This document shows, one piece after another, positions 36,038-59,700 of a stretch of DNA of 64,000 nucleotides. Made by a program: the position numbers and the translations under genes. The DNA lies in NCBI GenBank assembly GCA_050949565.1, contig JBMNFY010000017.1, positions 352,001 to 416,000 on the forward strand, given 5' to 3'. The stretch's first letter is position 1; each line of letters starts with the position of its first letter. Below the pieces are notes generated by a model. That model had not been told where the DNA came from. It ran no database searches and worked only from the letters and a program-made list of their open reading frames with translations. Origin of the DNA: Kiritimatiellia bacterium (lineage in GTDB: Bacteria > Verrucomicrobiota > Kiritimatiellia > RFP12 > UBA1067).

Positions 36038-37780
36038 CTACGGCGTTGCGTCACCTTCGAGGGTGGCGGCGGGGAGCCAGCCGCGGCGGCCTGCGGCGTC
36101 GATGCGCACCCAAGGGCCCGCCTGTTCGAGCGGCACAACCGTACTGCCGGGATTGAGCGTGAAGAGCAACGCGCTTTGCTGCGAAGGCGCAAAGCGCACC
36201 TCCGCGCGTCGTGTGAGGTGGCGCGTGGAGAGCGCTGTCTTGCTATGCAGCCGGTATCCTGTCGCCAGGCTGCCCACTAAAATCAGCAGCCCGACACCCG
36301 CCGCAAGCACTTTGTGCGTCCCGACCAACAGGAAGAACACGAAAAACGCCACCAGCACGCCGCCGCCTGCCACCAGTAGCGGCACGCTGTGACGCAGCGT
36401 CTGATCCACCTGTTCGCGCGTGATGATCTGCGCGTGGGTAACGGAAGTTTTCGGATATGCGGTGTCGATCACACGCACCTCTTCGGTCACGGCCGCGTCT
36501 TGGGTCACGCCGAAGGTCAAGCGGAAAGGCCCTGCCACGCTCTCTTCATACTTTCCGGTCGCGGGATTGAAGAAGCTGAAACGCGTTGCCGCAATCTCGG
36601 TGGCGTTGGTACTCTGCGGAATGAAGACCTGTTCGCTCTTCAGATGTGTCGCTTCGCGCAACAGCTCTTTCGGCGGATAACGCTTGAAGTACGGTGAATC
36701 GGGCGGCGCAGGCATAGCCGCCTGATCGCCGAGCCATCCCTCGCCGCTCAGTTCAAGCGAAAGCGTGATGATGTCGCCGGGCTGCACGGTGTTCTGCGAG
36801 AGTTTTCCTTCGAGGTTGAAGTTGCCGATCGCGCCGGAGAAGTTGTCGGGACGCCCGGCTTCGGGCAACGGCCTCACGCGCAGCGTGAACGGCTCAAGCT
36901 GCTTTTGCTTGGGGAACGACTGCCAATGCGAGAAGAAGCCGGCGGAACGCCGTTCGACCAGCATGCAGTGTACCTGCGGCCTGAAAACACGGTCGATCGG
37001 CTGGTGGCAGCGCGCCTTAGCGATGAAACGGTGCATCGTGAAGGTCTGCGTACCGCGTGTGACGCGGCTGCCTTCGGCGTTCTCAAGCCGTCCGACGGTG
37101 ATCAAATCGGGATTGTTCGGAAAACCGGTGACCCGCACATCCTCCACCTCGCTGCCGAACGTGACCTCAAGTTCAAAGTGAATCTCGAACGCCTGATTCA
37201 CATAGAGCGTCTCGGGCACCGTCTTGAAGCGTCCGCCCAGAATCTCACCCGCATGCACCGGTAGCGCGAGCAGCAGAAGCAGGCTCAACCAGCGGGCAGA
37301 ACAACGCATCGAAAGTTTGATAACGCAGAGACGCAGAGGCGCAGAGGTTTTTACGGGATGGCGTCGTGACCGCAGAAAGTTGAAAGTTGAGCGTTGAAAG
37401 TTGAGCGTTGAAAGTTTTTTTAACGCAGAGACGCGGAGACGCAGAGATCTTTTACGGGGTGGCGGCGTGACCGCCGCTGGGAGGGGCAAGCGTCTGCTTG
37501 CCCGCGGACGAGCAGACGCTCGTCCCTCCCGGTGCTCCGCAATGGAACCTGAAGTCATCCTTCCGCACAGCGGAAGGCGGCTCGTGGGGACACTCGCCCT
37601 CCATTGCTCGTCCCGGCGGCTCGTGGGGACACTCGCCCTCCATTGCTCGTCCCGGCGGCTCGTGAGGACACTCGCCCTCCATTGCTCGCCTCGGCGTCTC
37701 GTGAGGACACTCGCCCTCCAAATCATGTCAATCATGTCAATCATGTCAAAAAAACCTGAAACCAAGGGACGTGTACGCAT
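36038..37780 (-). CDS. BatD-like protein with C-terminal SH3-like domain; first 157 codons are repeat-derived (alternative start 37309)
   Basis: LPEAGRPDNFSGAIG, F.FFNPATGKYE, TM segments, W.RI..GRRGW SH3-like tail. Confidence 0.75.
   Translation of the reverse strand: MRTRPLVSGFFDMIDMIDMIWRASVLTRRRGEQWRASVLTSRRDEQWRASVPTSRRDEQWRASVPTSRLPLCGRMTSGSIAEHREGRASARPRASRRLPLPAAVTPPPRKRSLRLRVSALKKLSTLNFQRSTFNFLRSRRHPVKTSAPLRLCVIKLSMRCSARWLSLLLLLALPVHAGEILGGRFKTVPETLYVNQAFEIHFELEVTFGSEVEDVRVTGFPNNPDLITVGRLENAEGSRVTRGTQTFTMHRFIAKARCHQPIDRVFRPQVHCMLVERRSAGFFSHWQSFPKQKQLEPFTLRVRPLPEAGRPDNFSGAIGNFNLEGKLSQNTVQPGDIITLSLELSGEGWLGDQAAMPAPPDSPYFKRYPPKELLREATHLKSEQVFIPQSTNATEIAATRFSFFNPATGKYEESVAGPFRLTFGVTQDAAVTEEVRVIDTAYPKTSVTHAQIITREQVDQTLRHSVPLLVAGGGVLVAFFVFFLLVGTHKVLAAGVGLLILVGSLATGYRLHSKTALSTRHLTRRAEVRFAPSQQSALLFTLNPGSTVVPLEQAGPWVRIDAAGRRGWLPAATLEGDATP
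37310..37770. repeat. Repeat mosaic including a 39-bp tandem (37576-37720, about 3.7 copies), (ATCATGTCA)x3, heptamers and AACGCAGAGACGC units
   Basis: Directly visible; modules recur at ~22630-22840, ~53375-53430 and ~55200-55350. Confidence 0.9.
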
Positions 37781-43346: not shown

Positions 43347-43370
43347 CGTGGAACAGTTAGGAGTTAGGAG

Positions 43371-43784
43371 TTAGGAGTTAGGAGTTGTGTAAAGGGATTC
43401 GGGGTCGAAGTCTGGGGATTCACACACGGAATTGTCTTTCTCATGAAGGGTCTTGGTTGTGGCCGAGAGAATGCGCACAAGCTCATCACAATCGTTGAAC
43501 AAGGGACCAAAGGTAGCGGTCGGGATGTAATCGGTATCATGCAAAAGACGTAGCCAATACCGGGTCTCCAAGGATTCCTTGAAGGCGATTTGAATCTTCG
43601 CCGCAAAGTCCTTTCTGGAGTATGCGCCGCTGGCCTCTTCGATATTGGCACCAATCGAAGTACCGCAACGCAGGATCTGCTTTGACAAAACGTACTCACT
43701 CCGTTCCTTGCACAGCCACTGGAAGAGCCTGACAATCCGAATGGCGAACGCATAGCTCTTCGTCTTTATCGGCGTGTCTCTCAT
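43371..43784 (-). CDS. Four helix bundle protein (TIGR02436 / 23S rRNA IVP / Avd-like)
   Basis: KSYAFAIRIV, LSKQILRCGTSIGANIEEA, SRKDF..K..IA.KE..ET.YWL.LL; AAGGAG RBS; stop codon supplied by the heptamer array. Confidence 0.92.
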   Translation of the reverse strand: MRDTPIKTKSYAFAIRIVRLFQWLCKERSEYVLSKQILRCGTSIGANIEEASGAYSRKDFAAKIQIAFKESLETRYWLRLLHDTDYIPTATFGPLFNDCDELVRILSATTKTLHEKDNSVCESPDFDPESLYTTPNS

Positions 43785-43828
43785 GTCAACTCCTTGTTCC
43801 TTCTGTTTCCAACTTCTAACTAACTCCT

Positions 43829-43929
43829 AACTCCTTGCCTATAACTTGAGCGTTAAAAGTTGAACGTTGAGCGTTAAAAGTTTTTTAACTCTGAACGCTG
43901 AACGTCGAACGCTGAACGCTGAAGTCGAA
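43829..43929. repeat. ~100-bp heptamer-hairpin element (copy 1 of 3)
   Basis: AACTCCTTGCCTATAACTTGAGCGTTAAAAGTTGAACGTTGAGCG...AACGCTGAACGTCGAACGCTG; also at 53927 and 56135. Confidence 0.9.
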
Positions 43930-43967
43930 AACTCCTAAATCCTAAATCCTAACTCCTAACTCCCCCC

Positions 43968-46208: not shown

Positions 46209-47087
46209 CTATCTTTTCCGTGCGCGGCGGCGGAAGAGCGCGCGCACATCATCGATGTACGGGGCATCGGTGGAGAGTCGGATGAAATCAATGCCGGTGC
46301 GCCGCAGAAAACGCAGAAGCTGATCGTTTTCGGTAGCGGCCTGTGTGCGAAACGCCTCGCGCACCATGGCGGATGAGGTGTCGACCAGCAACAACTCGCC
46401 GGTCTCGGGGTCTTGCAACTCAATGAGGCCAACATCCGGCAGCGCGGCTTCGCACGGGTCTGAGATCGGGCAGGCGATGACGTCGTGGCGACGCGCGGTG
46501 ACGCGCAGTTCGCGTTCGTAGCCTGTGTCTTGGAAGTCTGAGACGAGGAACACCACGGCCTTGCGCTTCTGCACGTTGTTGAGGAAGCGCAGCGCAGCGG
46601 TGATGTCGGTGCGTTCACGGGTTTCGTCCGCCGCTAACACTTCACGCACGAGGCGCATGACCGCCGTGCGGCCTTTGCGCGGCGGGATGGATTTGAGGAT
46701 ACGGTCGCTGAACAGGATCAGCCCGATCTTATCCTGATTGCGAATTGCGGTCATGGCCAGCAGGCAGGTAATCTCGGCGGCAAGCTCTGATTTGGAGCGT
46801 GTACCGGAACCGAAAATCTGCGAGCCCGAGACGTCGACCAGAAAAACGACGGTGAGTTCGCGCTCTTCCGAATAGCGCTTCACATGCGGCAGGCCGGTAC
46901 GCGCCGTGACGTTCCAGTCGATCGACCGCACGTCGTCGCCGGGCACGTAGGCACGCACCTCGTCGAACTCGACGCCCTGCCCTTTGAAGACCGAGTGGTA
47001 GTCGCCGGAGAGGCGGTCGTCGATGAGATGCGTCGTGAGGATCTTGATCCTCCCGACCTGCTTCATCAATTCTGTCGTATCAATCAT
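46209..47087 (-). CDS. DUF58 domain protein (MoxR-associated)
   Basis: FKGQGVEFDEVRAYVPGDDVRSIDWNVTAR, EEREL, DVSGS, VSDF. Confidence 0.92.
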   Translation of the reverse strand: MIDTTELMKQVGRIKILTTHLIDDRLSGDYHSVFKGQGVEFDEVRAYVPGDDVRSIDWNVTARTGLPHVKRYSEERELTVVFLVDVSGSQIFGSGTRSKSELAAEITCLLAMTAIRNQDKIGLILFSDRILKSIPPRKGRTAVMRLVREVLAADETRERTDITAALRFLNNVQKRKAVVFLVSDFQDTGYERELRVTARRHDVIACPISDPCEAALPDVGLIELQDPETGELLLVDTSSAMVREAFRTQAATENDQLLRFLRRTGIDFIRLSTDAPYIDDVRALFRRRARKR

Positions 47088-47093
47088 GATAGA

Positions 47094-47609
47094 GTGAATA
47101 ACTAATAACTAATAGTGAATAACTAATAGTGAATAACTAATAGTGAATAACTAATGGTGAATAACTAATGGTGAATAACTAATAACTGTGAGATTACGGA
47201 GAGTTAAGCGGGCGATTGTTTCTTGAGAGTAAGAAGGCTACTGGTCAACAAGCGAAGCATCTCTTCGCAATCTGCGTAAATACCCGAAAAATCGCGGTGT
47301 GCGAGATAGTCGGTTTCATGGAGTAGTTCAAGCCAAAAAGCGGTTTCCGATGCTTCTTTCAAGGCGATCTGGAGCTTCAAAATAAAATCCTTCCTGCTAA
47401 TGGCATATTTAGACTCAGCGATGTTTGCGCCGATACTTGTACCACTGCGCAGAACCTGTTTGGACAAGACGAACTCTCTCTTCTTTTCGGTTAAGAATTG
47501 AAAAAGTCGGACGATTCTAATCGCAAACGCTTTACTTTTTGTCTGAAGTACGCCATCGGTTTTCATGCAAAATCTCTCCCAACTATTAGTTATTCATTAT
47601 TCACTATTC
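47094..47609 (-). mobile_element. Cassette B: four-helix-bundle gene between inverted (AATAGTG AATAACT)n arrays
   Basis: 14-mer tandem 47094-47187 and complementary arm 47581-47609; the cassette fills the moxR-DUF58 junction. Confidence 0.7.
47204..47566 (-). CDS. Four helix bundle protein (TIGR02436 / Avd-like)
   Basis: KSKAFAIRIV, LSKQVLRSGTSIGANIAE, SRKDF, IALKEASET.FWLELL. Confidence 0.92.
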   Translation of the reverse strand: MKTDGVLQTKSKAFAIRIVRLFQFLTEKKREFVLSKQVLRSGTSIGANIAESKYAISRKDFILKLQIALKEASETAFWLELLHETDYLAHRDFSGIYADCEEMLRLLTSSLLTLKKQSPA

Positions 47610-47613
47610 GTTT

Positions 47614-48597
47614 TTAGGGTACGGGGAGGGTGTTCAGGATGTCGGTGATGATTTTGTCGGTGGTGACCTCTTCGGCTTCGGCTTCGTAGGTGAGCATGAT
47701 GCGGTGGCGCAGCACATCGTGGGCGATCTCCTTGACGTCCTGCGGCGTGGCGTAAGCACGACCGTGCATCATCGCGTTGGCGCGCGCGGCCAGATTAAGG
47801 CAGAGCGTCGCGCGCGGCGAAGCGCCCATCTGAATCTGGTGCGTGAGCTTATCGAGTTTATGCGTTGCGGGGTCGCGTGTGGCGAGGACGATGTCGAGGA
47901 TGTAGTCGCCCACCTTTTCGTCGCAGTACACCTGATCGAGCGTGTCACGCAACGTTTGGACATCGGTTGCGGTGACGACAGCCTTGACCGACGCAGACTG
48001 CTTTTGAGTGAAGCGGTTCATGATGCGCCGCTCGTCATCGCGCGACGGGTGCGTGATGATACATTTGAGCATGAAGCGGTCGACCTGAGCCTCGGGCAAC
48101 GGATAGGTACCCTCCTGCTCGATCGGGTTTTGCGTGGCCATAACCAAGAAGGGCGCGGGCAGCGGATAGGTGTTTTCGCCGATCGTGACCTGATGCTCCT
48201 GCATCGCCTCAAGCAGCGCGCTCTGCACCTTGGCCGGGGCGCGGTTGATCTCGTCCGCCAACAGCAGGTTTGTGAAGACCGGCCCCTTCTTGGGCGTGAA
48301 GGTCGCATCCTTGGGGTTGTAGATCATCGTGCCGATCACGTCGGCAGGCAGCAGATCCGGCGTGAAGGAGATGCGCTGGAATTGCAGGCCGAGAGCCTGC
48401 GCCAGCGTTTTGACCGAAAGGGTTTTGGCAAGCCCCGGCACACCCTCAAGGAGGATGTGCCCACCGGTAATCAGAGCGATGAGAAGACGGTCAATCAGCT
48501 TCTCCTGCCCCACGATTACCTTGTTGACTTCTTGGCGGATCGCCGTCAACGTCTCGGCCTGCGCCGCGACTAGGTTAGTGGTTTTTTCTAAGTTCAT
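47614..48597 (-). CDS. moxR: MoxR-family AAA+ ATPase
   Basis: LEGVPGLAKT, FTPDLLPAD, LADEINRAPAKVQSALLEAM, ATQNPIEQEGTYPLPEAQ.DRF, GASPR. Confidence 0.95.
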   Translation of the reverse strand: MNLEKTTNLVAAQAETLTAIRQEVNKVIVGQEKLIDRLLIALITGGHILLEGVPGLAKTLSVKTLAQALGLQFQRISFTPDLLPADVIGTMIYNPKDATFTPKKGPVFTNLLLADEINRAPAKVQSALLEAMQEHQVTIGENTYPLPAPFLVMATQNPIEQEGTYPLPEAQVDRFMLKCIITHPSRDDERRIMNRFTQKQSASVKAVVTATDVQTLRDTLDQVYCDEKVGDYILDIVLATRDPATHKLDKLTHQIQMGASPRATLCLNLAARANAMMHGRAYATPQDVKEIAHDVLRHRIMLTYEAEAEEVTTDKIITDILNTLPVP

Positions 48598-53349: not shown

Positions 53350-54052
53350 ACGCGGGCGTCCCCGCCAGCAGGAAGTTGAGCGTTGAAAGTTGAGCGTTTT
53401 TTTAACGCAGAGACGCGGAGACGCAGAGATTTTTGCAGGGCACCGGCATCGCTATCGCCGCAGGTCGCATGTCGCGAGTCGCGATTGCGACCACCCAGTG
53501 GTCGCAATGATGAGTGTGAAAGCCCTGCTCTGCCTTGGCCGAATCCGATCCCGATCCCGATAGCGATCCCAACGGCGGCGTGAAACGCCGCCCGGACGAG
53601 CAGACGCTCGTCCCTCCCGGCGCTCCGCGAGTCCGGTCATAGGCTGGAGGGCGAGCGTCTTCGCGAGACGCCTTCCGCGCCGTGCGCGGAATCACAGCCC
53701 CGAAGGGGCGGCATCACCTTAGCCCAGGGCAAGCGCAGCGCAGCCCTGAGTCATGGAGTGCAAGGCATGGTGGCCTGAAAGGTCACTTCAAACTTGCAGA
53801 GCATCGCTATCGGTATCGCTATCGGTATCGCGCGAGTCGCAGGTCGCCAGTCGCAAGCCGCGAGTCAACCTGATGAGTGTAAAAACGGGCGGAAGACGGG
53901 CGCCGAGCGTACGCGGGACATGCGCTAACTCCTTGCCTATAACTTGAGCGTTAAAAGTTGAACGTTGAGCGTTAAACGTTTTTAACTCAGAACTCAGAAC
54001 GCTGAACGTCGAACGCTGAACTCTGAAGGTGAAAACTCCTTGCCTATCACTT
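53350..54052. repeat. Repeat mosaic (heptamers, hexamers, REP-like palindromes, 25-bp palindrome, ~100-bp element)
   Basis: Long blocks shared with 54740-55380 and 59900-60316. Confidence 0.9.
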
Positions 54053-54173
54053 ACACCGGCCAGAGTTATCCTCATTTACATTCCCGTGCGAAGCGCGGGC
54101 GGCGAGTTAACCAATCACGAAAACACTAAAACACGGCTTGTCCCGCGTATCACAAGTGTGTTACAGTGGCGAC

Positions 54174-54431
54174 ATGAAAACAGCCGTACTACACACGCGA
54201 ATTGATCCGAAATTAAAAACCCAGGCGGAAACTGTTTTTGAAAAGATCGGCCTTTCGTCATCGGACGCGATACGCATTTTCTACAAGCAGGTCGTTCTCC
54301 GTAAAGGGCTCCCTTTTGACGTCTCGATCCCCAACAAGGAAACGGCGGAGACTCTTGCCAAGAGTCGCCGAGGTGAGGACGTAGAAACGTTCGACTCCCT
54401 TGACGAACTTTTCGAGAGTTGGGAGAAGTGA
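54174..54431 (+). CDS. dinJ: RelB/DinJ-family antitoxin
   Basis: RID..LK.QAE.VF..IGLS.SDAIR.F..Q.....GLPFD..IPN.ET. Confidence 0.92.
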   Translation: MKTAVLHTRIDPKLKTQAETVFEKIGLSSSDAIRIFYKQVVLRKGLPFDVSIPNKETAETLAKSRRGEDVETFDSLDELFESWEK

Positions 54432-54700
54432 AAAAGGTTTCGCAAACCAAGCAATTTCGCCGTGATGTGAAACGCATGCAGAAACGTGGCAAGGACTTGT
54501 CCAAACTCCAGGCTCTCGTCCGCTTGTTGGCGTACGGCCACCCGCTATCCCCCCAACACCGCGATCATCCACTGCTTGGAGATTGGGCTCCATCCAGAGA
54601 CTGCCATATCGAACCGGACTGGGTTCTTATCTACACGCCGGGCCCCGATACCCTCTTGCTTGAACGAACAGGGACACACGCCGATTTGTTTGGGAAGTGA
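54428..54700 (+). CDS. yafQ: YafQ-family mRNA interferase toxin
   Basis: FRRDVKR..KRG, RDHPL.GDW..RDCHIEPDWVLIY, RTGTHADLF; GTGA overlap. Confidence 0.93.
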   Translation: MKKVSQTKQFRRDVKRMQKRGKDLSKLQALVRLLAYGHPLSPQHRDHPLLGDWAPSRDCHIEPDWVLIYTPGPDTLLLERTGTHADLFGK

Positions 54701-54739
54701 AACCGGCTTCTACCGAATTAGGAACGGAAACGAGCCTTG

Positions 54740-55515
54740 AGAGGCGGTAAGGCGGTAAGGCAGTAAGGGGCAGCAGGCAATAAGCTTTGGTGCGCAAAAT
54801 TTGGAATGCGGTGATAAGAGCCGCGCTGTGCGCGGAAGCACAGCCCCGAAGGGGCGGCATCACCTTAGCCCAGGGCAAGCGCAGCGCAGCCCTGGGTCGT
54901 GGAACGAAAGGCATGGTGGCCTGAAAGGTCACTTCAAACTTACAGAGCATTGCTATCGGTATCGCTATCGGAATCGCTATCGCTATCGGTATCGGTATCG
55001 CCGCAGGTCGCATGTCGCGCGTCGTGAGTCAACCTCTCTTATTGCGACCACCCAGTGGTCGCAATGATGAGTGTAAAAGCCCTGCTCTGCTTTTGCCGAA
55101 TCCGATTCCGATCCCGATAGCGATCCCGATCCCGATCTGGATGAGGCTTTAAACCAGAAACAAAGGACAGAAAAACACCGCAGAGACGCAGGGATTTTTT
55201 ACGGGGTGGCGGCGTGACCGCCGCCGGGGAGGGACGAGCGTCTGCTTGCCCGCGGACAAGTGACACTTGTCCCTCCCGGTGCTCCGCAATGAAACCCGAA
55301 ACCATCCTTCCGCACAGCGGAAGGCGGCTCGTGGGGACACTCGCCCTCCATCGTAACTAAGGGACAGGTATTTAGACGCTCTTAAATGGTCGGATGCTCA
55401 AGGAACAGGGGCACGGACATTCCTGTCCGTGGCACGGGTTGGAAAACCCGTGCTCCTTTCGCCGCGCATAACGCGGCGTGGTCAAGCGGACGCTTGACCC
55501 TCCCGGTGCTTCGCA
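54740..55515. repeat. Repeat mosaic between the two convergent TA modules
   Basis: GGCGGTAA octamers, TTGGAATGCGG, CAGCCCCGAAGGGGCG..., (GCTATC/GGTATC)n, 25-bp palindrome, CACGGACATTCCTGTCCGTG. Confidence 0.9.
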
Positions 55516-55553
55516 AGTCCGGCAAATTGTCGTCCCACTCATCCGTGGATGTG

Positions 55554-55811
55554 TCAGCGGTACACTTCACGGCGGTGTCCGATGCGGATGACGACAACGA
55601 CAAGCTCACAGTCACGAATCGCGTAAACAATTCGCCAGTCACCTACGCGGACGCGGTAGAGGCCTTCCACGCCGACCAACTTAACAGCATCAGGTGGTCG
55701 AGGATCGTCCTCAAGAGACTCGAATTTGAGGACAACGCGATGCCGCACGTCGCTGGGCATGTGGTCGAGTACCTTGCACGTCCGTTTATCTAAGCGGACG
55801 GAGAACTTCAC
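55554..55811 (-). CDS. relE: RelE/ParE-family toxin
   Basis: L..DPRP....KL.G....YRVRVGDWRIVY.I.D..LVV.VIRIGHRREVYR. Confidence 0.93.
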   Translation of the reverse strand: MKFSVRLDKRTCKVLDHMPSDVRHRVVLKFESLEDDPRPPDAVKLVGVEGLYRVRVGDWRIVYAIRDCELVVVVIRIGHRREVYR

Positions 55812-56074
55812 GTCTCGGCCACCCGTCCCGCCAGATATTCGTCAAGGGTGTTAAAGGCGGCGGGATTGCGGTCGTACTCCTTGAGCACTTTCGTGGCGGC
55901 TCGAACATCCTTTGCGTCTTCAAGCTTCTGGAGCAGGGCGAGGTCTTCAGTTGAAATTAATGCGGCGACCGGCTTCCCGCGCCGGGCGAGGACAACCCGC
56001 TCGCCTCCGTAAGAAACGCGGTTGATCGCCTCCGCCAGTCTGTTGCGCGCCTCGACAATGCTGAGCGTGGTCAT
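55808..56074 (-). CDS. Phd/YefM-family antitoxin
   Basis: SIVEARNRLAEAINRV.YGGERVVL.RRGKPVAALIS.EDL; AAGGAG RBS. Confidence 0.92.
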   Translation of the reverse strand: MTTLSIVEARNRLAEAINRVSYGGERVVLARRGKPVAALISTEDLALLQKLEDAKDVRAATKVLKEYDRNPAAFNTLDEYLAGRVAET

Positions 56075-56104
56075 GGTGTTTTGTCTCCTTCCTTTCATGT
56101 CCAT

Positions 56105-56133
56105 AATGTACACAACCGCGCGTTGCGGGTCAA
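56105..56133 (-). promoter_or_regulatory. Sigma70 promoter of the phd-relE operon
   Basis: TTGACC-17 bp-TACATT. Confidence 0.65.
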
Positions 56134-56134
56134 T

Positions 56135-56632
56135 AACTCCTTGCCCATAACTTGAGCGTTAAAAGTTGAACGTTGAGCGTTAAACGTTTTTAACTCAGAA
56201 CGCTGAACGTCGAACGCTGAACTCAGGTACAAAGGGATCGGTATTGACTCGCGACCCGCGACGTGCGACTTGCAGCCAACCCTGCCCCCAAAAATCTGCG
56301 TTAAAAATCTAAACCACGAACCACACGAACAACACGAAAGCAGTGCTGTGCCTTTTCGTGTATTCCGTGTATTTCGTGGTTAAACAAACCCGAGCAATGC
56401 CCCTCCAAAATCTGCGTCATCTGTGTAATCTGTGGATAGAAAAAACCGAGCCATGCCCTTCCAAAAACCTTGGCGTTCTTGGCGCCTTGGCGGTTCCAAA
56501 AACCCGAGCAATGCCCCTCCAAAATCTGCGTCATCTGTGTAATCTGTGGATAGAAAACCAAGCAACGCCCCTCAAAAAACCTTCGTGCCCTTCGTGTCTC
56601 CGTGGTTAAAACAACCGAGCCCTGCCCCTGTC
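56135..56632. repeat. ~100-bp element (copy 3) followed by a ~57-bp-period linker/unit array
   Basis: Linker CCGAGCAATGCCCCTCCAAAA variants at 56390, 56446, 56504, 56558 and 56615 (degenerate copy at 56276). Confidence 0.9.
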
Positions 56633-56742
56633 ACCGCGCGGACTACCCCAGCCTGAAAAAACGCTTCACTTCCCCCCGTTGGATGGTATACACTTGAACC
56701 GTTGATTTTGGATTGTCTCAATCAATAAACAAGGATCACGCC

Positions 56743-59700
56743 ATGAACATTAAAACACGCATCCTTCCCGCACTACTCCTTGCCGCCGTGCTGTTACCCT
56801 TCTCAGTGTACGCCTACACCTACGGTGATTACACCTACACCGTCTATGACGGCAAAGCCACCATCACCGACTTTAATTCATCCTACTCCGGATCCTTGAC
56901 CATTCCCTCCACCCTCGGCGGCTATCCCGTCACATCCATCAGCTACAGAGCCTTCTACAACTGCTATCGCCTCACCTCCGTCACCATCCCTGACAGCGCC
57001 ACAAGAATCGGCGACGAAGCCTTCTCATCCTGCACCTCCCTCACAGCGATCAACGTATCGAAAAACAACCCGGCCTACACAAGTACCAACGGCGTCCTCT
57101 TCAACAAAAACTTGACCACTCTGATCCAGTGCCCCGGTGGCTTCTCTGGATCCTACACCATCCCCGACAGCGTCACATCCATCGGCGACAGCGCCTTCCG
57201 CTCCTGCGACATCCCTCACGGCAATCAACGTATCGGAAAACAATCCGGCCTACACAAGTGCCAACGGTATCCTTTTCAACAAAAGCTTGACCGCTCTAAT
57301 CCAGTGCCCCGGTAGCTTCTCCGGATCCTACACCATTCCAGACAGCGTCACATCCATCGGCGACAGCGCCTTCTACGACTGCACCAAACTCACCTCCGTC
57401 AACATCCCTGACAGCGTCAAAAGCGTCGGCGACTGGGCCTTCGGCTGGTGCGCGTCCCTCGCCTCCGTCACCATCGGGAACAGCGTCACCGACATCGGCG
57501 GCTACGCCTTCTGCTACTGCTCCTCCCTCGCCTCCGTCGTCATCGGAAACAACGTCATCGCCATCGGCGACAGAGCCTTCTACAACTGCGACTCCCTCAC
57601 CTCCGTCAACATTCCCGACAGCGTAACAAACATCGGCGGCTGGGCCTTCGGGAACTGCTATCGCCTCACCTCCGTCACCATCCCTGACAGCGTAACAACC
57701 ATCGGCTACTGGGCCTTCCGCTCATGCACCAACATCACCTCCGTCACCATCGGAAACAGCGTCACAAACATCGGCGACTACGCCTTCGGAGACTGCTCCG
57801 CTTTGCAGTGCGCATATTTTAAAGGCAATGCTCCCTCTAGAGGTTACGATGTTTTTTTAAGATCCACTCAAACGACCGTCTACCGGCTACCTTATGCCAT
57901 AGGCTGGCCGACTGTGCCCAACTCTTGGTGTGGTCGACCGACTGCGTATTGGACTTGGCCGGTTACTGTGATGTTTGACCCGCTGGGGGGAGCAGTAGAT
58001 CCGTCAAACGCAACCATGAGCTACGGTTTCGCCTACGGTGTCTTGCCTGTACCGATGCTGGCCGGACATTTCTTCGGGGGCTGGTGGACCGAAGCCGGCG
58101 GCACGGGAACGCAGGTGACAGACACGACTTTAGTGACAACAGCGTCAGACCACACCCTCTATGCCAAATGGATCAACCCATACGCTGTCGGGAACGGCGA
58201 AAACGCCGTGCCGGTCGGCAAGGTCACGGCGGCTTGTCCATCCAGCTTGGCGGGGTCGGTTTGTTGGACGACGGCGACATGGCGGGGCTCGAATGGAGCG
58301 TGACCGGACGGGGCGTGCTGTCCTTTGACTGGAAGGTGTCGAGCGAGGCGGATTGGGATGTGCTGCGGTTCTACGAGGTCGGAACCGGAGAAACGAATGT
58401 GATCTCCGGCACGGGCGCGGAGTGGACGCGGATCACGCGGGTCGTGGAAGCGGACTCGCCGCACACGTTCCGCTGGGAATATGAGAAAGATCCGCATGGC
58501 GACTATGTCGGTGATGACTGCGGCTGGATCGATGCGTTCGACTGGGCGCCTTTCTTTGATCTGACCGTTAACGGCGGCACGGGCGGCGGCACTTACACCA
58601 ACGGCACAATCGTGACCGTCTCGGCGGACACACCCCCCGCTCACTACCTGTTTGATGTGTGGACAGGAGACACCGGCGCCGTAGCGAACGTACACGCGGC
58701 GACCACCACCCTGACCATGCCGGCGACGAACGCCGTGATAACGGCGACGTACAAGCCGATCCTCTATCCGGTCGAAGTCGTTGGCGGCCAGGGCAGCGGC
58801 GGCTACGCCTACGGCTCCACGGTGACGCTGAGCGCGGATATACCGGAAGGCAAGCGCTTCTACCGCTGGGCGGGCGACACGGCAAACATTGCCGACCTCA
58901 ACGCGCCGACGACCACGGTGTATTTCGCAGGTGAGTCGCTGGCGGTGACCTCGACCTATTGCGTACCGCTGACCGTGACGCAGGGCACGGGCAGCGGATG
59001 GTACCCCGAGGGAGCGACCGCCGTTGTGAAGGCCGACCCCAATCCGATGTGGATGGAGTTCGCAGGATGGATCGGCGACGGCGCAGGCCAAGTGGAAAAC
59101 GTCTTTCTGGCGGACACGACAATGGTGATCCCGACGCGGCCTTCCGCATTGACCGCCACCTACACCGACTCGGTGGCGCGCGTGGCGGGCTGTTACGGGC
59201 GCGCGTTCACGCGCTCGGGCGTGGAAGGCGGCATTTCGACGGACTTTGCGGCAGGCTCTCCCTCCGGCACGCCAGCAGTCAAGCTGGGCGGGGCGGGTGT
59301 GGTTCCGGACAACGGGTTTGCGGCCTTTGAAACCTCGGTTTTCGGCAGCGGAACCGTCACGTTCTGGTGGCGGGTTTCGAGCGAACGCGATGCCGACTAC
59401 TTGAAGTTTCTCGTGGACGGCACGCAGGTCGCCGCCCTTTCTGGAACGAAAGGTCCATGGACGCAGGTTTCGCAACGGATCGAGGGCGCGGGCGCATCCC
59501 ATGTTTTGCGCTGGGAATACGCGAAAAACGATTCCTTCGCCAGCAGTACCGATGCGGGCTGGGTGGACGACATCGTTTGGACGGGAGACATTCCCGAACC
59601 GGTGCTCTCGCCCGACATTCAAGAGACGGCCTTCACCAACGGGGTGTTCGGCATCCGTTTCCTGGGCGAACGCGGCATTCCCTACGCGGTCTACAGCAAC

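What the first reader, a model, noticed from the sequence alone, without database searches (positions are those of the whole stretch)
56276..56632. CRISPR-like periodic array: constant ~21-bp linker alternating with interchangeable 9-mer-triplet units
Seen: linker CCGAGCAATGCCCCTCCAAAA (variants) at 56390, 56446, 56504, 56558 and 56615 (spacing 56, 58, 54, 57), with a degenerate copy 114 bp earlier. The units between are not random spacers but triplets with one shared grammar: TTTCGTG x3, ATCTG(C/T)G x3 (twice), CTTGGCG x3 and CTTCGTG x3, each ending GGTT or GGAT. No cas genes are present. Inference: a cassette array that collects variant binding/target sites. From recollection, unverified here, such triplets often flank GxxExxY (PD-(D/E)XK-like) genes, and none is in this window.
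Basis: partly seen in the sequence, partly recalled or inferred. Interest (0 to 1): 0.78.

Follow-up and report, generated by a model that had tools for sequence, protein, structure and literature searches.

The report
Orphan end-repeats of nuclease gene cassettes
The periodic array is real, but it is not CRISPR-like: it is a gene-less cluster of the three-fold end repeats that bracket small GxxExxY nuclease gene cassettes, one of hundreds of such clusters in this genome.

Summary
Observation confirmed. Five linker copies (core CCGAGCNNTGCC plus a C/A run) alternate with five triplets of 8-9-nt repeats at 56353-56635.

It is one of about 550 triplet loci in this genome: 1043 triplets and about 270-300 linkers. 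The same triplet grammar forms the inverted ends of all 6 GxxExxY (TIGR04256/PF13366) genes here, and of 48 of 59 such loci tested in four phyla. The protein model has a Cas4/RecB-like nuclease fold.

Close strains show these cassettes present, absent or exchanged at the same intergenic slot. Their arrays differ by whole modules. The linker is limited to G000 and two close relatives.

Best reading (0.6): a gene-less GxxExxY cassette (S-triplet, loop, AS-triplet) with reiterated end modules. This resembles a BIME/REPIN cluster, with a PD-(D/E)XK nuclease in the place of the RAYT transposase. Recognition of the triplets by the nuclease and mobilisation in trans are inferred, not shown.

CRISPR, integron attC, plain duplication-and-decay and structured-RNA readings are poorly supported. 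I found nothing on this in six searches of the paper library.

The parts
56250..56269 (+). Three-fold CGCGAC-type repeat (CGCGACC CGCGACG TGCGAC) next to the degenerate linker. The same 'GCGACTTGC(A/G)GCC' lead-in precedes arrays at other loci.
56275..56301 (+). Degenerate linker (GCCAACCCTGCC + CCCAAAAA) followed by a single TCTGCG repeat: a decayed or partial module.
56312..56339 (+). Sense-form triplet (AACCACGAA CCACACGAA CAACACGAAA): the 5' arm of the gene-less cassette.
   Evidence: pairs with 56353-56381 in the minimum-energy and centroid folds
56340..56352 (+). 13-nt loop GCAGTGCTGTGCC between the two arms. It is linker-like and sits where the gene lies in occupied cassettes.
   Evidence: linker-like loops such as AGGCATGGCTCGGCT recur in the genome
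56353..56381 (-). Triplet 1 (+ strand TTTTCGTG TATTCCGTG TATTTCGTGGTT; sense form CACGAAA/CACGGAA on the - strand): the 3' arm of the gene-less cassette.
56390..56410 (+). Linker 1, CCGAGCAATGCCCCTCCAAAA.
56410..56437 (-). Triplet 2, ATCTGCG TCATCTGTG TAATCTGTGGAT (class CACAGAT).
   Evidence: This class brackets a GxxExxY gene in same-genus genome G006.
56446..56466 (+). Linker 2, CCGAGCCATGCCCTTCCAAAA.
56468..56495 (-). Triplet 3, CCTTGGCG TTCTTGGCG CCTTGGCGGTT (class CGCCAAG).
56504..56524 (+). Linker 3, identical to linker 1.
56524..56551 (-). Triplet 4, identical to triplet 2.
56558..56578 (+). Linker 4, CCAAGCAACGCCCCTCAAAAA.
56580..56607 (-). Triplet 5, CCTTCGTG CCCTTCGTG TCTCCGTGGTT (class CACGAAG).
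56615..56635 (+). Terminal linker core CCGAGCCCTGCC followed by CCTGTCACC. A similar CCCTGTCAC(T/C)AACCGATTAC motif follows terminal linkers at other loci.
56152..56222 (.). Block of about 10 heptamers (TTGAACG type) between the array and the toxin-antitoxin promoter. It belongs to the heptamer repeat family that flanks four-helix-bundle and toxin-antitoxin cassettes.
55554..56133 (-). Context: Phd-family antitoxin (55808-56113) and RelE/StbE-family toxin (55554-55811), with their own promoter-like site at 56133-56105.

Best explanation
The array is a gene-less GxxExxY cassette with reiterated end modules.

Anatomy. GxxExxY genes encode proteins of about 125 aa (PF13366, PD-(D/E)XK, Cas4/RecB-like fold). 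They sit in discrete cassettes whose two ends are inverted copies of a 'triplet': three direct 8-10-nt repeats of a CRYNNRR core, beginning ACC and ending GGT. At 56312-56381 the two ends face each other across a 13-nt loop where the gene would be. To the right follow four more end modules, each joined by a lineage-specific linker (CCGAGCNNTGCC plus a C/A run). The same linker lies between triplets beside GxxExxY genes in this lineage.

Shown:
- the shared grammar;
- the gene association;
- cassette presence, absence and exchange at fixed intergenic slots in close strains;
- whole-module differences between strains;
- the restriction of the linker to a subclade.

Inferred:
- The nuclease binds the three direct repeats as a head-to-tail oligomer.
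- It drives, or once drove, spread of cassette ends in trans. Orphan triplets would then be to GxxExxY what REP/REPIN/BIME repeats are to RAYT transposases.
- Arrays grow, shrink and become mosaic by recombination at linkers and between like triplets.

I expect the array itself to have no dedicated cellular function.
For: 1. Family size. I counted 1307 CRYNNRD triplets, against 42 in a shuffled genome. Of these, 1043 have a period above 7 and fall in 553 clusters. 303 linker cores lie next to a triplet, and linker polarity relative to the triplet is 349 versus 66.

2. Gene link in this genome. All 6 GxxExxY genes have triplet clusters within 150 bp of both ends, against 41 of 3058 ORF calls. 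None of 5 Y1_Tnp hits has a cluster within 400 bp, and the integron integrase has none within 1500 bp.

3. Gene link elsewhere. Inverted flanks exceed 20 shuffles by more than 6 score units in 30 of 36 loci (6 in G000, 30 from other genomes of the phylum). The same holds in 9 of 12 loci from Planctomycetota, Bacteroidota and Binatia and in 9 of 11 same-genus loci.

4. Across 201 genomes of the phylum, triplet excess over the reversed-pattern control has median 18 with the gene and 1 without. After subtracting 2 per gene the medians are 10 and 1 (Mann-Whitney p = 3e-6, not corrected for kinship). Of 22 genomes with excess of 50 or more, 19 carry the gene.

5. Cassette mobility. The metK-ahcY spacer is empty in G000. 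It holds one GxxExxY cassette in G002 and G007, a second in G004, and a relative of the second with three reiterated 3' modules in G003. The DUF58-MoxR spacer holds a four-helix-bundle cassette in G000 and a CACAGAT-flanked GxxExxY cassette in G006.

6. Reiterated ends beside genes. There are 15 and 22 triplets next to two G000 genes, and linker-bearing modules run up to the gene in G004. Same-strand runs are closed by an opposite triplet at the 3' side only 38 times, against 8 times at the 5' side only.

7. Module-level differences between G000 and G004, whose flanks are 93-99% identical: +1 module between linkers, +2 modules (115 bp), +297 bp and +165 bp.

8. Linker distribution: 106 hits in G000, 44 in G004, 12 in G002, 2 in G006, 0 in G001, G003 and G005, and 0-3 in 150 other genomes of the class.

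9. Protein. AF2 model with pLDDT 94.6. The best Foldseek matches are Cas4 SSO0001, lambda exonuclease, RecE and the AddAB nuclease domain. D, E-x-K and the GxxExxY motif are invariant or nearly so in 29 sequences.

10. Self-association. In a 3-copy job the model supports binding but does not show it. The score is 0.49 and the best of 3 controls is 0.00. That mark was reached by 20 of 30 proteins solved as pairs of one chain and by 1 of 23 solved as single chains. The runs agree in at least 78% of contacts, and the partner's pLDDT is at least 81. The calibration used two copies and its own alignments, so these counts hold only roughly. The interface is head-to-tail: residues 59-70 and 93-101 of one copy against 26-42 of the next, a stretch that includes the GxxExxY motif.

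11. Mismatches between the two arms show no G-U bias: 41 G-U against 46 A-C. That fits DNA-level ends better than an RNA stem.
Against: - No GxxExxY gene lies in the window.
- Of the array's classes, only the first (CACGAAA/CACGGAA) resembles the ends of a resident gene, in roughly 22 of 26 positions by my reading. CACAGAT, CGCCAAG and CACGAAG have no cognate gene in this 92%-complete assembly.
- Three genomes (G100, G026, G206) have a triplet excess of 50 or more without a gene match at E <= 1e-10.
- No transposition event was caught. Every module difference has homologous or micro-homologous ends, for example TCTTCGCG, so recombination alone explains them.
- Within-class homogeneity is only slightly higher for classes with a gene: 0.91-0.93, against 0.82-0.97 without.
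- Orientation relative to neighbouring genes is not random: 111 sense against 67 antisense, on rough ORF calls. Some transcript-level selection is therefore possible.
- DNA binding by the protein is untested.
- Kinship inflates the cross-genome statistics.
Confidence: 0.6

Rival explanations
1. Host-serving protein-binding array. The triplets are arrays of binding sites for GxxExxY proteins or another factor, kept for a cellular role such as nucleoid organisation, a decoy or sponge for the nucleases, or insulation between divergent genes.
For: The three-fold direct repeats with a constant CRY core and variable NN positions look like a recognition code. The array lies between divergent transcription units. 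Head-to-tail self-association of the protein is supported by the model: score 0.49 against 0.00 for the best of 3 controls, with the counts given under the best explanation.
Against: The whole 53350-56740 island is missing at the orthologous site in G004. Arrays differ by whole modules, or are replaced outright, between strains 93-99% identical in their flanks. Array polarity and composition are mixed: of 75 clusters with 3 or more triplets, 41 are mixed in polarity. The linker is absent from three of six congeners. None of this fits a conserved function at this place.
Confidence: 0.15
2. RNA-level element. The array is transcribed into small RNAs or processing sites, for example antisense to the purine-rich sense triplets that sit at or just upstream of GxxExxY start codons, or RNase III stems like those of 23S rRNA intervening sequences.
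For: Sense triplets lie next to the start codon and are Shine-Dalgarno-like (GGAG/GAGG/GAAG) in many cassettes. Clusters are more often co-oriented with their neighbours, 111 against 67. One contig of an RNA library covers 56194-56396 at depth about 4.
Against: Apart from the one hairpin, the array folds no better than shuffles: z = -0.92 on the + strand and -2.16 on the - strand. No Rfam family matches the array. No promoter-like or terminator-like site lies in it. Arm mismatches show no G-U excess, 41 against 46. Most classes in the array have no cognate mRNA in this genome. The RNA contig cannot show strand, ends or true transcription.
Confidence: 0.08
3. Integron-like attC cluster (CALIN). 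The triplet hairpins are attC-type sites and the small genes (GxxExxY, four-helix-bundle, toxin-antitoxin pairs) are integron cassettes.
For: An integron-type integrase exists at C17:750483-751412, scoring 358.6 bits against a cut-off of 265. Many antisense triplets end in GTTAAAC and many sense triplets are preceded by GTTTAAC, which fit the attC core consensus GTTRRRY / RYYYAAC as I recall it (sequence). Toxin-antitoxin cassettes sit in the same island.
Against: No triplet cluster lies within 1500 bp of the integrase, and its upstream 4 kb shows no triplets. The empty metK-ahcY site in G000 has no attC- or attI-like sequence, yet it is the insertion point in relatives. Several classes end in GGAT, GGTTCC or GTGTGAG, not GTTRRRY. 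Genes are bracketed by inverted ends, not followed by a single palindromic site. No attC model could be run here.
Confidence: 0.05
4. Local tandem duplication followed by point decay, with no relation to anything elsewhere.
For: Two units are identical over 54 nt, and TRF sees a 58-bp period. Long perfect tandem arrays of multi-module blocks exist elsewhere, for example 143 bp x about 21 and 120 bp x 17. So local duplication does happen.
Against: The linker and every triplet class recur at tens to hundreds of other loci. Units differ by concerted changes: at the same two core positions in two of the three repeats, and at one of them in the third.
Confidence: 0.04
5. A CRISPR-like adaptive array that stores foreign sequence between repeats.
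For: Regular alternation with a period of about 57 bp. The associated protein family has a Cas4-like fold.
Against: Only 12 nt of the 'repeat' are conserved. The 'spacers' are triple internal repeats, one is used twice, and all belong to genome-wide families. cas1 lies only on contigs C8 and C6.
Confidence: 0.01

Closest known systems
REP / REPIN - RAYT systems and BIME clusters of Proteobacteria (search listing and abstracts only: PMC3116915, PMC3337134, 10.1101/2022.05.22.493013; BIME details are recalled)
   Same: Short intergenic repeats occur in hundreds of copies. The associated enzyme gene is bracketed by inverted copies of the same repeat. Orphan copies form mosaic clusters with conserved linker motifs. 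Several sequence classes coexist in a genome. Inheritance is largely vertical with lineage-specific expansions.
   Different: The enzyme is a PD-(D/E)XK (Cas4/RecB-like) nuclease of about 125 aa, not an HUH tyrosine transposase. None of the 5 Y1_Tnp hits in this genome has triplets nearby. The repeat is three direct 8-10-mers, not a palindromic hairpin. There are several paralogous genes, each with its own class, and the gene cassettes themselves move between or out of slots.
Four-helix-bundle gene cassettes (TIGR02436; '23S rRNA intervening sequence protein' family)
   Same: A small gene of about 110-130 aa is bracketed by inverted arrays of short tandem repeats and inserted between genes of operons. 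It occupies the very same intergenic slot as a GxxExxY cassette in a congener.
   Different: The repeats are heptamers in 3 to more than 20 copies without the CRY core. The protein is a helical bundle, not a nuclease fold.
CRISPR arrays
   Same: Regular alternation of a constant and a variable segment.
   Different: See the membership test: repeat length and conservation, the nature of the spacers and cas linkage are all not met.
Integron cassette arrays / CALINs
   Same: Small promoterless genes and toxin-antitoxin pairs behave as exchangeable cassettes at fixed slots. Arrays of recombination-site-like repeats occur without genes.
   Different: There is no linkage to the resident IntI. Insertion occurs at a site without attC or attI. 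Cassettes have inverted three-fold ends rather than a single attC.
MITEs and other non-autonomous derivatives of transposons with sub-terminal multi-site ends (comparison recalled, not tested)
   Same: The gene-less S-loop-AS unit at 56312-56381 is formally a cassette with its interior deleted. Multiple binding-site repeats sit at each end.
   Different: No target-site duplication could be established: only a possible TTAT at one junction, n = 1. No known transposase family is involved.

Membership tests
CRISPR array | Near-identical direct repeats of about 23-50 bp | tested here: not met
   Only a 12-nt core (CCGAGCNNTGCC) and flanking A/C runs are conserved in 171 distinct linker contexts. 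The array's five copies differ at up to 3 of 21 positions, or keep only the core.
CRISPR array | Unique spacers of foreign origin | tested here: not met
   The units are triple internal repeats. One occurs twice in the array, and all belong to classes found at 12-46 other loci.
CRISPR array | Linked cas genes | tested here: not met
   cas1 matches lie only at C8:396814-397794 and C6:210022-210684. The window is on C17.
GxxExxY (TIGR04256 / PF13366) cassette | Ends made of inverted triplets with ACC...CRYNNRR grammar | tested here: met
   56312-56339 and 56353-56381 form such a pair. The grammar matches the gene flanks.
GxxExxY (TIGR04256 / PF13366) cassette | A GxxExxY gene between the ends | tested here: not met
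   The six-frame family search of the whole genome finds 7 matches (6 genes, one of them split), none in the window. Only a 13-nt loop separates the arms. Hence 'gene-less derivative', not a member.
REP/BIME-RAYT system | HUH Y1 transposase (RAYT) flanked by the repeats | tested here: not met
   None of the 5 Y1_Tnp (PF01797) hits checked, of 7 found, has a triplet cluster within 400 bp.
REP/BIME-RAYT system | Palindromic REP unit | tested here: not met
   The units are direct three-fold repeats. Only S/AS pairs form palindromes.
Integron / CALIN | attC sites recognised by an attC model; linkage or homology to an IntI-associated array | tested here: inconclusive
   IntI is present, but no triplets lie within 1500 bp of it. 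An attC covariance model was not available. GTTAAAC ends fit the recalled R' consensus only in some classes.
Rfam RNA families | Match at the gathering threshold | tested here: not met
   The only hit in the window is Acido-Lenti-1 at 54842-54896(-), outside the array.

The most novel reading that the evidence does not exclude
The arrays are ordered relics of cassette turnover. GxxExxY nucleases, bound head-to-tail on the three direct repeats, would catalyse exchange of small gene cassettes (GxxExxY, four-helix-bundle, toxin-antitoxin) at fixed intergenic slots. The linker would be the crossover site. Each replacement would leave the previous cassette's end module behind. A mixed array such as 56353-56635 would then be a historical record of the cassettes that passed through the slot. 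This would be an integron-like cassette system run by a Cas4-like nuclease instead of an integrase, present in at least four phyla.
Probability: 0.12. Interest if true: 0.85.

Novelty: new variant of a known kind. Interest (0 to 1): 0.63.

Why it matters
PF13366/TIGR04256 is a widespread protein family. It is present in 103 of 201 sampled genomes of this phylum, and also in Planctomycetota, Bacteroidota and Binatia. A 2012 survey lists its function as 'Unknown' (PMC3424549, one passage read). No solved structure was found by sequence.

This analysis ties the family to a defined DNA element: inverted three-fold ends. It shows that the cassettes come and go at fixed slots between near-identical strains. 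It also shows that orphan ends can expand to about 1000 copies in a genome.

That makes a concrete, testable case for a second, mechanistically different REPIN-RAYT-like partnership. It also gives a handle on the equally obscure four-helix-bundle ('23S IVS protein') cassettes.

On the practical side, these repeats explain much of the intergenic variability among these anaerobic-digester MAGs.

Tried and rejected
- The search for related loci with the 5-sequence alignment failed because no stretch was conserved enough. I used the genome search with the family model instead.
- The orthologous locus of the array could not be compared. In G004 the sequence diverges right after the ABC-transporter promoter (window about 53349) and the island is absent. 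G002 and G006 gave no orthologous island either. Unit order at this very locus therefore remains uncompared.
- Read laying used Logan contigs only. They break at the repeats, cannot show strand, ends or expression level, and sum depth from other loci. One RNA-library contig covers 56194-56396. I draw no conclusion about transcription from covered or uncovered parts.
- A-tract phasing was looked at by eye only (spacings of about 20-35 bp, not about 10.5) and dropped.
- I tested whether classes with a resident gene are younger or more homogeneous. The trend was weak and I do not rely on it. The three most widespread classes all have a cognate gene. The chance of that is about 0.02 by a crude count, which is suggestive only.
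- The ORFs across the array (88 aa on +, 86 aa on -) have no Pfam match and are taken as spurious.
- Supplementary files of papers were not consulted.
- Searches of the paper library for GxxExxY; PF13366/PDDEXK_3; TIGR04256/TIGR02436/IPR026350; Acido-Lenti-1; REPINs/RAYT; and four-helix-bundle plus tandem repeats found nothing on the gene-triplet association.
Full report
**1. Observation**

- The linker sits at 56390, 56446, 56504 and 56558 with 0, 2, 0 and 3 mismatches. One search found 5 hits in the window including 22528(-), where 0.00 were expected.
- A core-only copy lies at 56615 and a degenerate one at 56275-56286.
- Between the linkers are five triplets of 8-9-nt repeats ending in GGTT or GGAT. 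Two of these units are identical over 54 nt.
- TRF reports period 58, 3.4 copies, 68% matches.
- New: 56312-56339 is the reverse-complement form of the first triplet. So 56312-56381 is an inverted repeat around a 13-nt loop.
- Contigs of two independent DNA metagenome runs cover both array ends with 0-1 differences.

**2. It is one locus of a very large family**

- The 21-mer has 74 hits within 4 mismatches in the 4.66-Mb assembly.
- The 12-nt core, allowing 1 mismatch, has 871 hits. Of these, 303 lie within 50 nt of a triplet (126 on both sides, 101 downstream only, 76 upstream only). Of the 568 without a triplet, 495 lie inside ORF calls and are taken as chance.
- A scan for three repeats of a CRYNNRD core at period 7-10 gives 1307 triplets, against 42 in a shuffled genome.
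- Of these, 1043 have a period above 7. They fall in 553 clusters, 75 of which hold 3 or more triplets.
- The linker has a fixed polarity relative to the triplet, 349 against 66.
- In 171 distinct contexts only CCGAGC..TGCC and the flanking A and C/A runs are conserved. The two middle positions vary freely.
- Main classes by number of loci: CGCAGAG 144, CATGAAA 109, CACGGAA 65, CACAGAG 49, CACGAAG 46, CACAAAG 39, CACAGAT 34, CGCCAAG 30.

The linker is not local. The units differ by concerted changes, in two or three of the repeats at once, between classes that each exist elsewhere.

**3. The triplets are the ends of GxxExxY gene cassettes**

- The genome has 6 GxxExxY genes, one of them frameshifted.
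- Each has the sense form of a triplet just upstream of, or overlapping, its start, and the reverse complement just downstream.
- All 6 have triplet clusters within 150 bp of both ends, against 41 of 3058 ORF calls.
- The family occurs in 103 of 201 sampled genomes of the phylum.
- Of the 36 loci scored (6 in G000 plus 30 fetched), 30 have inverted flanks scoring more than 6 units above the best of 20 shuffles.
- The same holds for 9 of 12 loci from Planctomycetota, Bacteroidota and Binatia genomes and for 9 of 11 from congeners.
- The ends begin ACC(A/G)C and end G(C/T)GGT across phyla.
- Arm mismatches are 41 G-U-compatible against 46 A-C. There is no sign of selection for an RNA stem on either strand.

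**4. The cassettes and the arrays are dynamic**

G002 and G004 share 93-99% identity with G000 in flanking genes.

Cassette differences:
- The metK-ahcY spacer is 7 nt long and empty in G000.
- The same spacer holds a 636-bp GxxExxY cassette in G002. That cassette is also there in G007, which belongs to another genus.
- G004 has a different cassette at this site, bounded by CTCACAC...GTGTGAG triplets.
- G003 has a relative of the G004 cassette, followed by three reiterated 3' modules joined by a linker-like AAACC-TCAGAGCAC-A..C..CTAAACCC.
- The DUF58-MoxR spacer (window 47087-47614) holds a four-helix-bundle cassette with heptamer ends in G000. In G006 it holds a GxxExxY cassette with CACAGAT triplets, the class used twice in the array.

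Array differences, G004 relative to G000:
- one CTTCGTG module more, between two linkers;
- two modules (115 bp) more at an array end;
- 297 bp more, bounded by TCTTCGCG;
- 165 bp more.

Elsewhere the whole intergenic repeat content is replaced. The island 53350-56740, which holds the array, is absent at the orthologous place in G004.

**5. Reiterated ends are typical next to the genes**

- Two G000 genes carry 15 and 22 further triplets on one side.
- In G004, [sense triplet + TTTTTTGGGGCATTGCT..GG] modules run right up to the gene. The 'linker' therefore occurs between triplets, and between the last triplet and the gene, beside GxxExxY genes in this lineage.
- Same-strand runs of triplets are closed by an opposite triplet at the 3' side only 38 times, and at the 5' side only 8 times.
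- The array reads on the + strand as S-loop-AS followed by four [linker-AS] modules. That is the G003 architecture with the gene missing.

**6. Distribution**

- The linker pattern gives 106 hits in G000, 44 in G004, 12 in G002, 2 in G006 and 0 in G001, G003 and G005. In 150 other genomes of the class it gives 0-3. It is a young, subclade-specific motif.
- Orphan triplets are older and track the gene. Excess over the reversed pattern has median 18 with the gene and 1 without (10 and 1 after removing 2 per gene; p = 3e-6, kin not corrected).
- 19 of the 22 genomes with the largest excess carry the gene.
- G000 (excess 518) and G037 (565) are the two extremes of the 201 genomes.

**7. The protein**

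- It matches Pfam PF13366.
- G, E, Y, D, K and Q..Y positions are invariant in 29 sequences.
- No PDB relative was found by sequence.
- The AF2 model has pLDDT 94.6. Its nearest folds are Cas4 SSO0001, lambda exonuclease, RecE and the AddAB nuclease domain, at TM 0.45-0.56.
- A three-copy complex job supports self-association but does not show it. The score is 0.49 and the best of 3 controls is 0.00.
  - That mark was reached by 20 of 30 proteins solved as pairs of one chain and by 1 of 23 solved as single chains.
  - The runs agree in at least 78% of contacts, and the partner's pLDDT is at least 81.
  - The calibration was unlike this job.
- The contacts are head-to-tail: residues 59-70 and 93-101 against 26-42, forming an open chain. 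A head-to-tail oligomer is the geometry expected for reading direct rather than palindromic repeats. This link is my inference.

**8. What it is not**

- CRISPR: see the membership test. cas1 lies on other contigs.
- Structured RNA: only the hairpin folds, with z = -0.92 and -2.16. There is no Rfam hit in the array and no promoter-like or terminator-like site in it.
- RAYT-driven REPs: none of the 5 Y1_Tnp hits checked lies near triplets.
- Integron: an IntI exists but has no triplets near it, and the empty insertion site has no attC- or attI-like sequence. This is not fully excluded, because no attC model was available.
- Coding: the two ORFs across the array have no Pfam match.

**9. Mechanism, with marks**

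Shown:
- the anatomy;
- the gene association;
- cassette presence, absence and exchange;
- module-level variation;
- the lineage restriction of the linker.

Inferred:
- GxxExxY oligomers recognise the triplets.
- Orphan ends arise from cassettes by loss of the gene and by reiteration of ends. They may be propagated in trans, as REPINs are.
- Arrays become mosaic by recombination at linkers and between like triplets.

Open questions:
- Why there are three repeats.
- What chemistry inserts a cassette between a stop codon and the next start codon.
- Whether the arrays do anything for the cell.

**10. Context and literature**

- The organism is an uncultured member of the Lentisphaerae/Kiritimatiellae branch of Verrucomicrobiota, judged by the names of its relatives. 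It is found in anaerobic-digester and biogas metagenomes.
- Paper searches found nothing on the gene-triplet link.
- PF13366 is listed with function 'Unknown' in PMC3424549 (one passage read).
- A GxxExxY domain is mentioned once, as a mis-recognised cas4, in PMC8934634 (one passage read).
- The REPIN-RAYT comparison rests on abstracts in the listing and on recalled knowledge of BIMEs.

**Verdict**

The CRISPR analogy is wrong. The recalled GxxExxY link is right, and it is the key to the array. The array itself is an ordinary member of an unusual repeat system that, as far as I could find, has not been described in print.

Noticed in passing
window 43371-43784(-) and 47225-47545(-), with flanks 43355-43386, 43811-43963, 47093-47184 and 47590-47609: Two four-helix-bundle (TIGR02436) genes sit between genes of a MoxR/DUF58/Bat-like operon. 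Each is bracketed by inverted arrays of heptamer repeats (AGTTAGG, AATAACT and others). One heptamer block is itself interrupted by a copy of the TTGAACG block that also lies at 56152-56222. In G006 the second slot holds a GxxExxY cassette instead.
   Followed up: partly
window 55554-56113(-); L002 and L003 (G005, G003): The Phd/RelE pair has relatives, about 73% identical, in G005, G003 and G007. In the two I inspected, G005 and G003, it lies in a different neighbourhood (after a glmM-like gene in G005). There too it is bracketed by inverted heptamers of the AACGCTCAACGTTCAA type. So toxin-antitoxin pairs seem to travel as the same kind of cassette.
   Followed up: partly
window 54175-54700(+): By my reading of the sequence, a second toxin-antitoxin pair (DinJ/RelB-like antitoxin, YafQ-like toxin) lies in the same 3.4-kb island. 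It was not scanned against a library because my first coordinates were off.
   Followed up: no
window 54842-54896(-) and about 53690-53750: Rfam Acido-Lenti-1 matches at 40.6 bits against a gathering score of 37. A near-copy of the same 120-nt stretch lies about 1.1 kb upstream but did not reach the threshold. Both are embedded in GCTATC/CCGATC hexamer repeats.
   Followed up: no
window 37576-37720 and many other loci: A 39-bp tandem repeat (3.7 copies) contains GGCGGCTCGTG(A/G)GGACACTCGCCCTCC. This motif recurs next to triplet modules across the genome and in G004.
   Followed up: no
G000 C17:778369-781536, C17:453470-455390, C17:731891-733142, C5 and C18: Long, almost perfect tandem arrays of multi-module blocks: 143 bp x about 21, 120 bp x 17, 216 bp x 6, and 300-bp units. 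These point to recent amplification of composite units.
   Followed up: partly
G000 C17:750483-751412: An integron-type integrase (358.6 bits, cut-off 265) has a lower-GC 4-kb region upstream. No triplet modules lie near it.
   Followed up: partly
G000 C15:22593-22596 versus L180 (G002), L186 (G004), L188 (G007), L191 (G003): The metK-ahcY spacer is a hot spot with four states: empty, cassette A, cassette B, and a relative of cassette B (B') with reiterated ends. Both junctions of cassette A read TT|AT.
   Followed up: yes
after terminal linkers, e.g. window 56627-56640; G000 C4:85096, C7:71986; G004 L057: A motif CCCTGTCAC(T/C)AACCGATTAC often follows the last linker of an array.
   Followed up: no
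G037 (another family of the phylum): A second genome has an equally extreme triplet load: 844 matches against 279 in the control, with CGCAGAG and CGCCAAG classes. This looks like an independent expansion.
   Followed up: no
window 56744-58300(+): A leucine-rich-repeat surface-protein gene with 69/138/175-bp internal tandem repeats lies directly right of the array.
   Followed up: no
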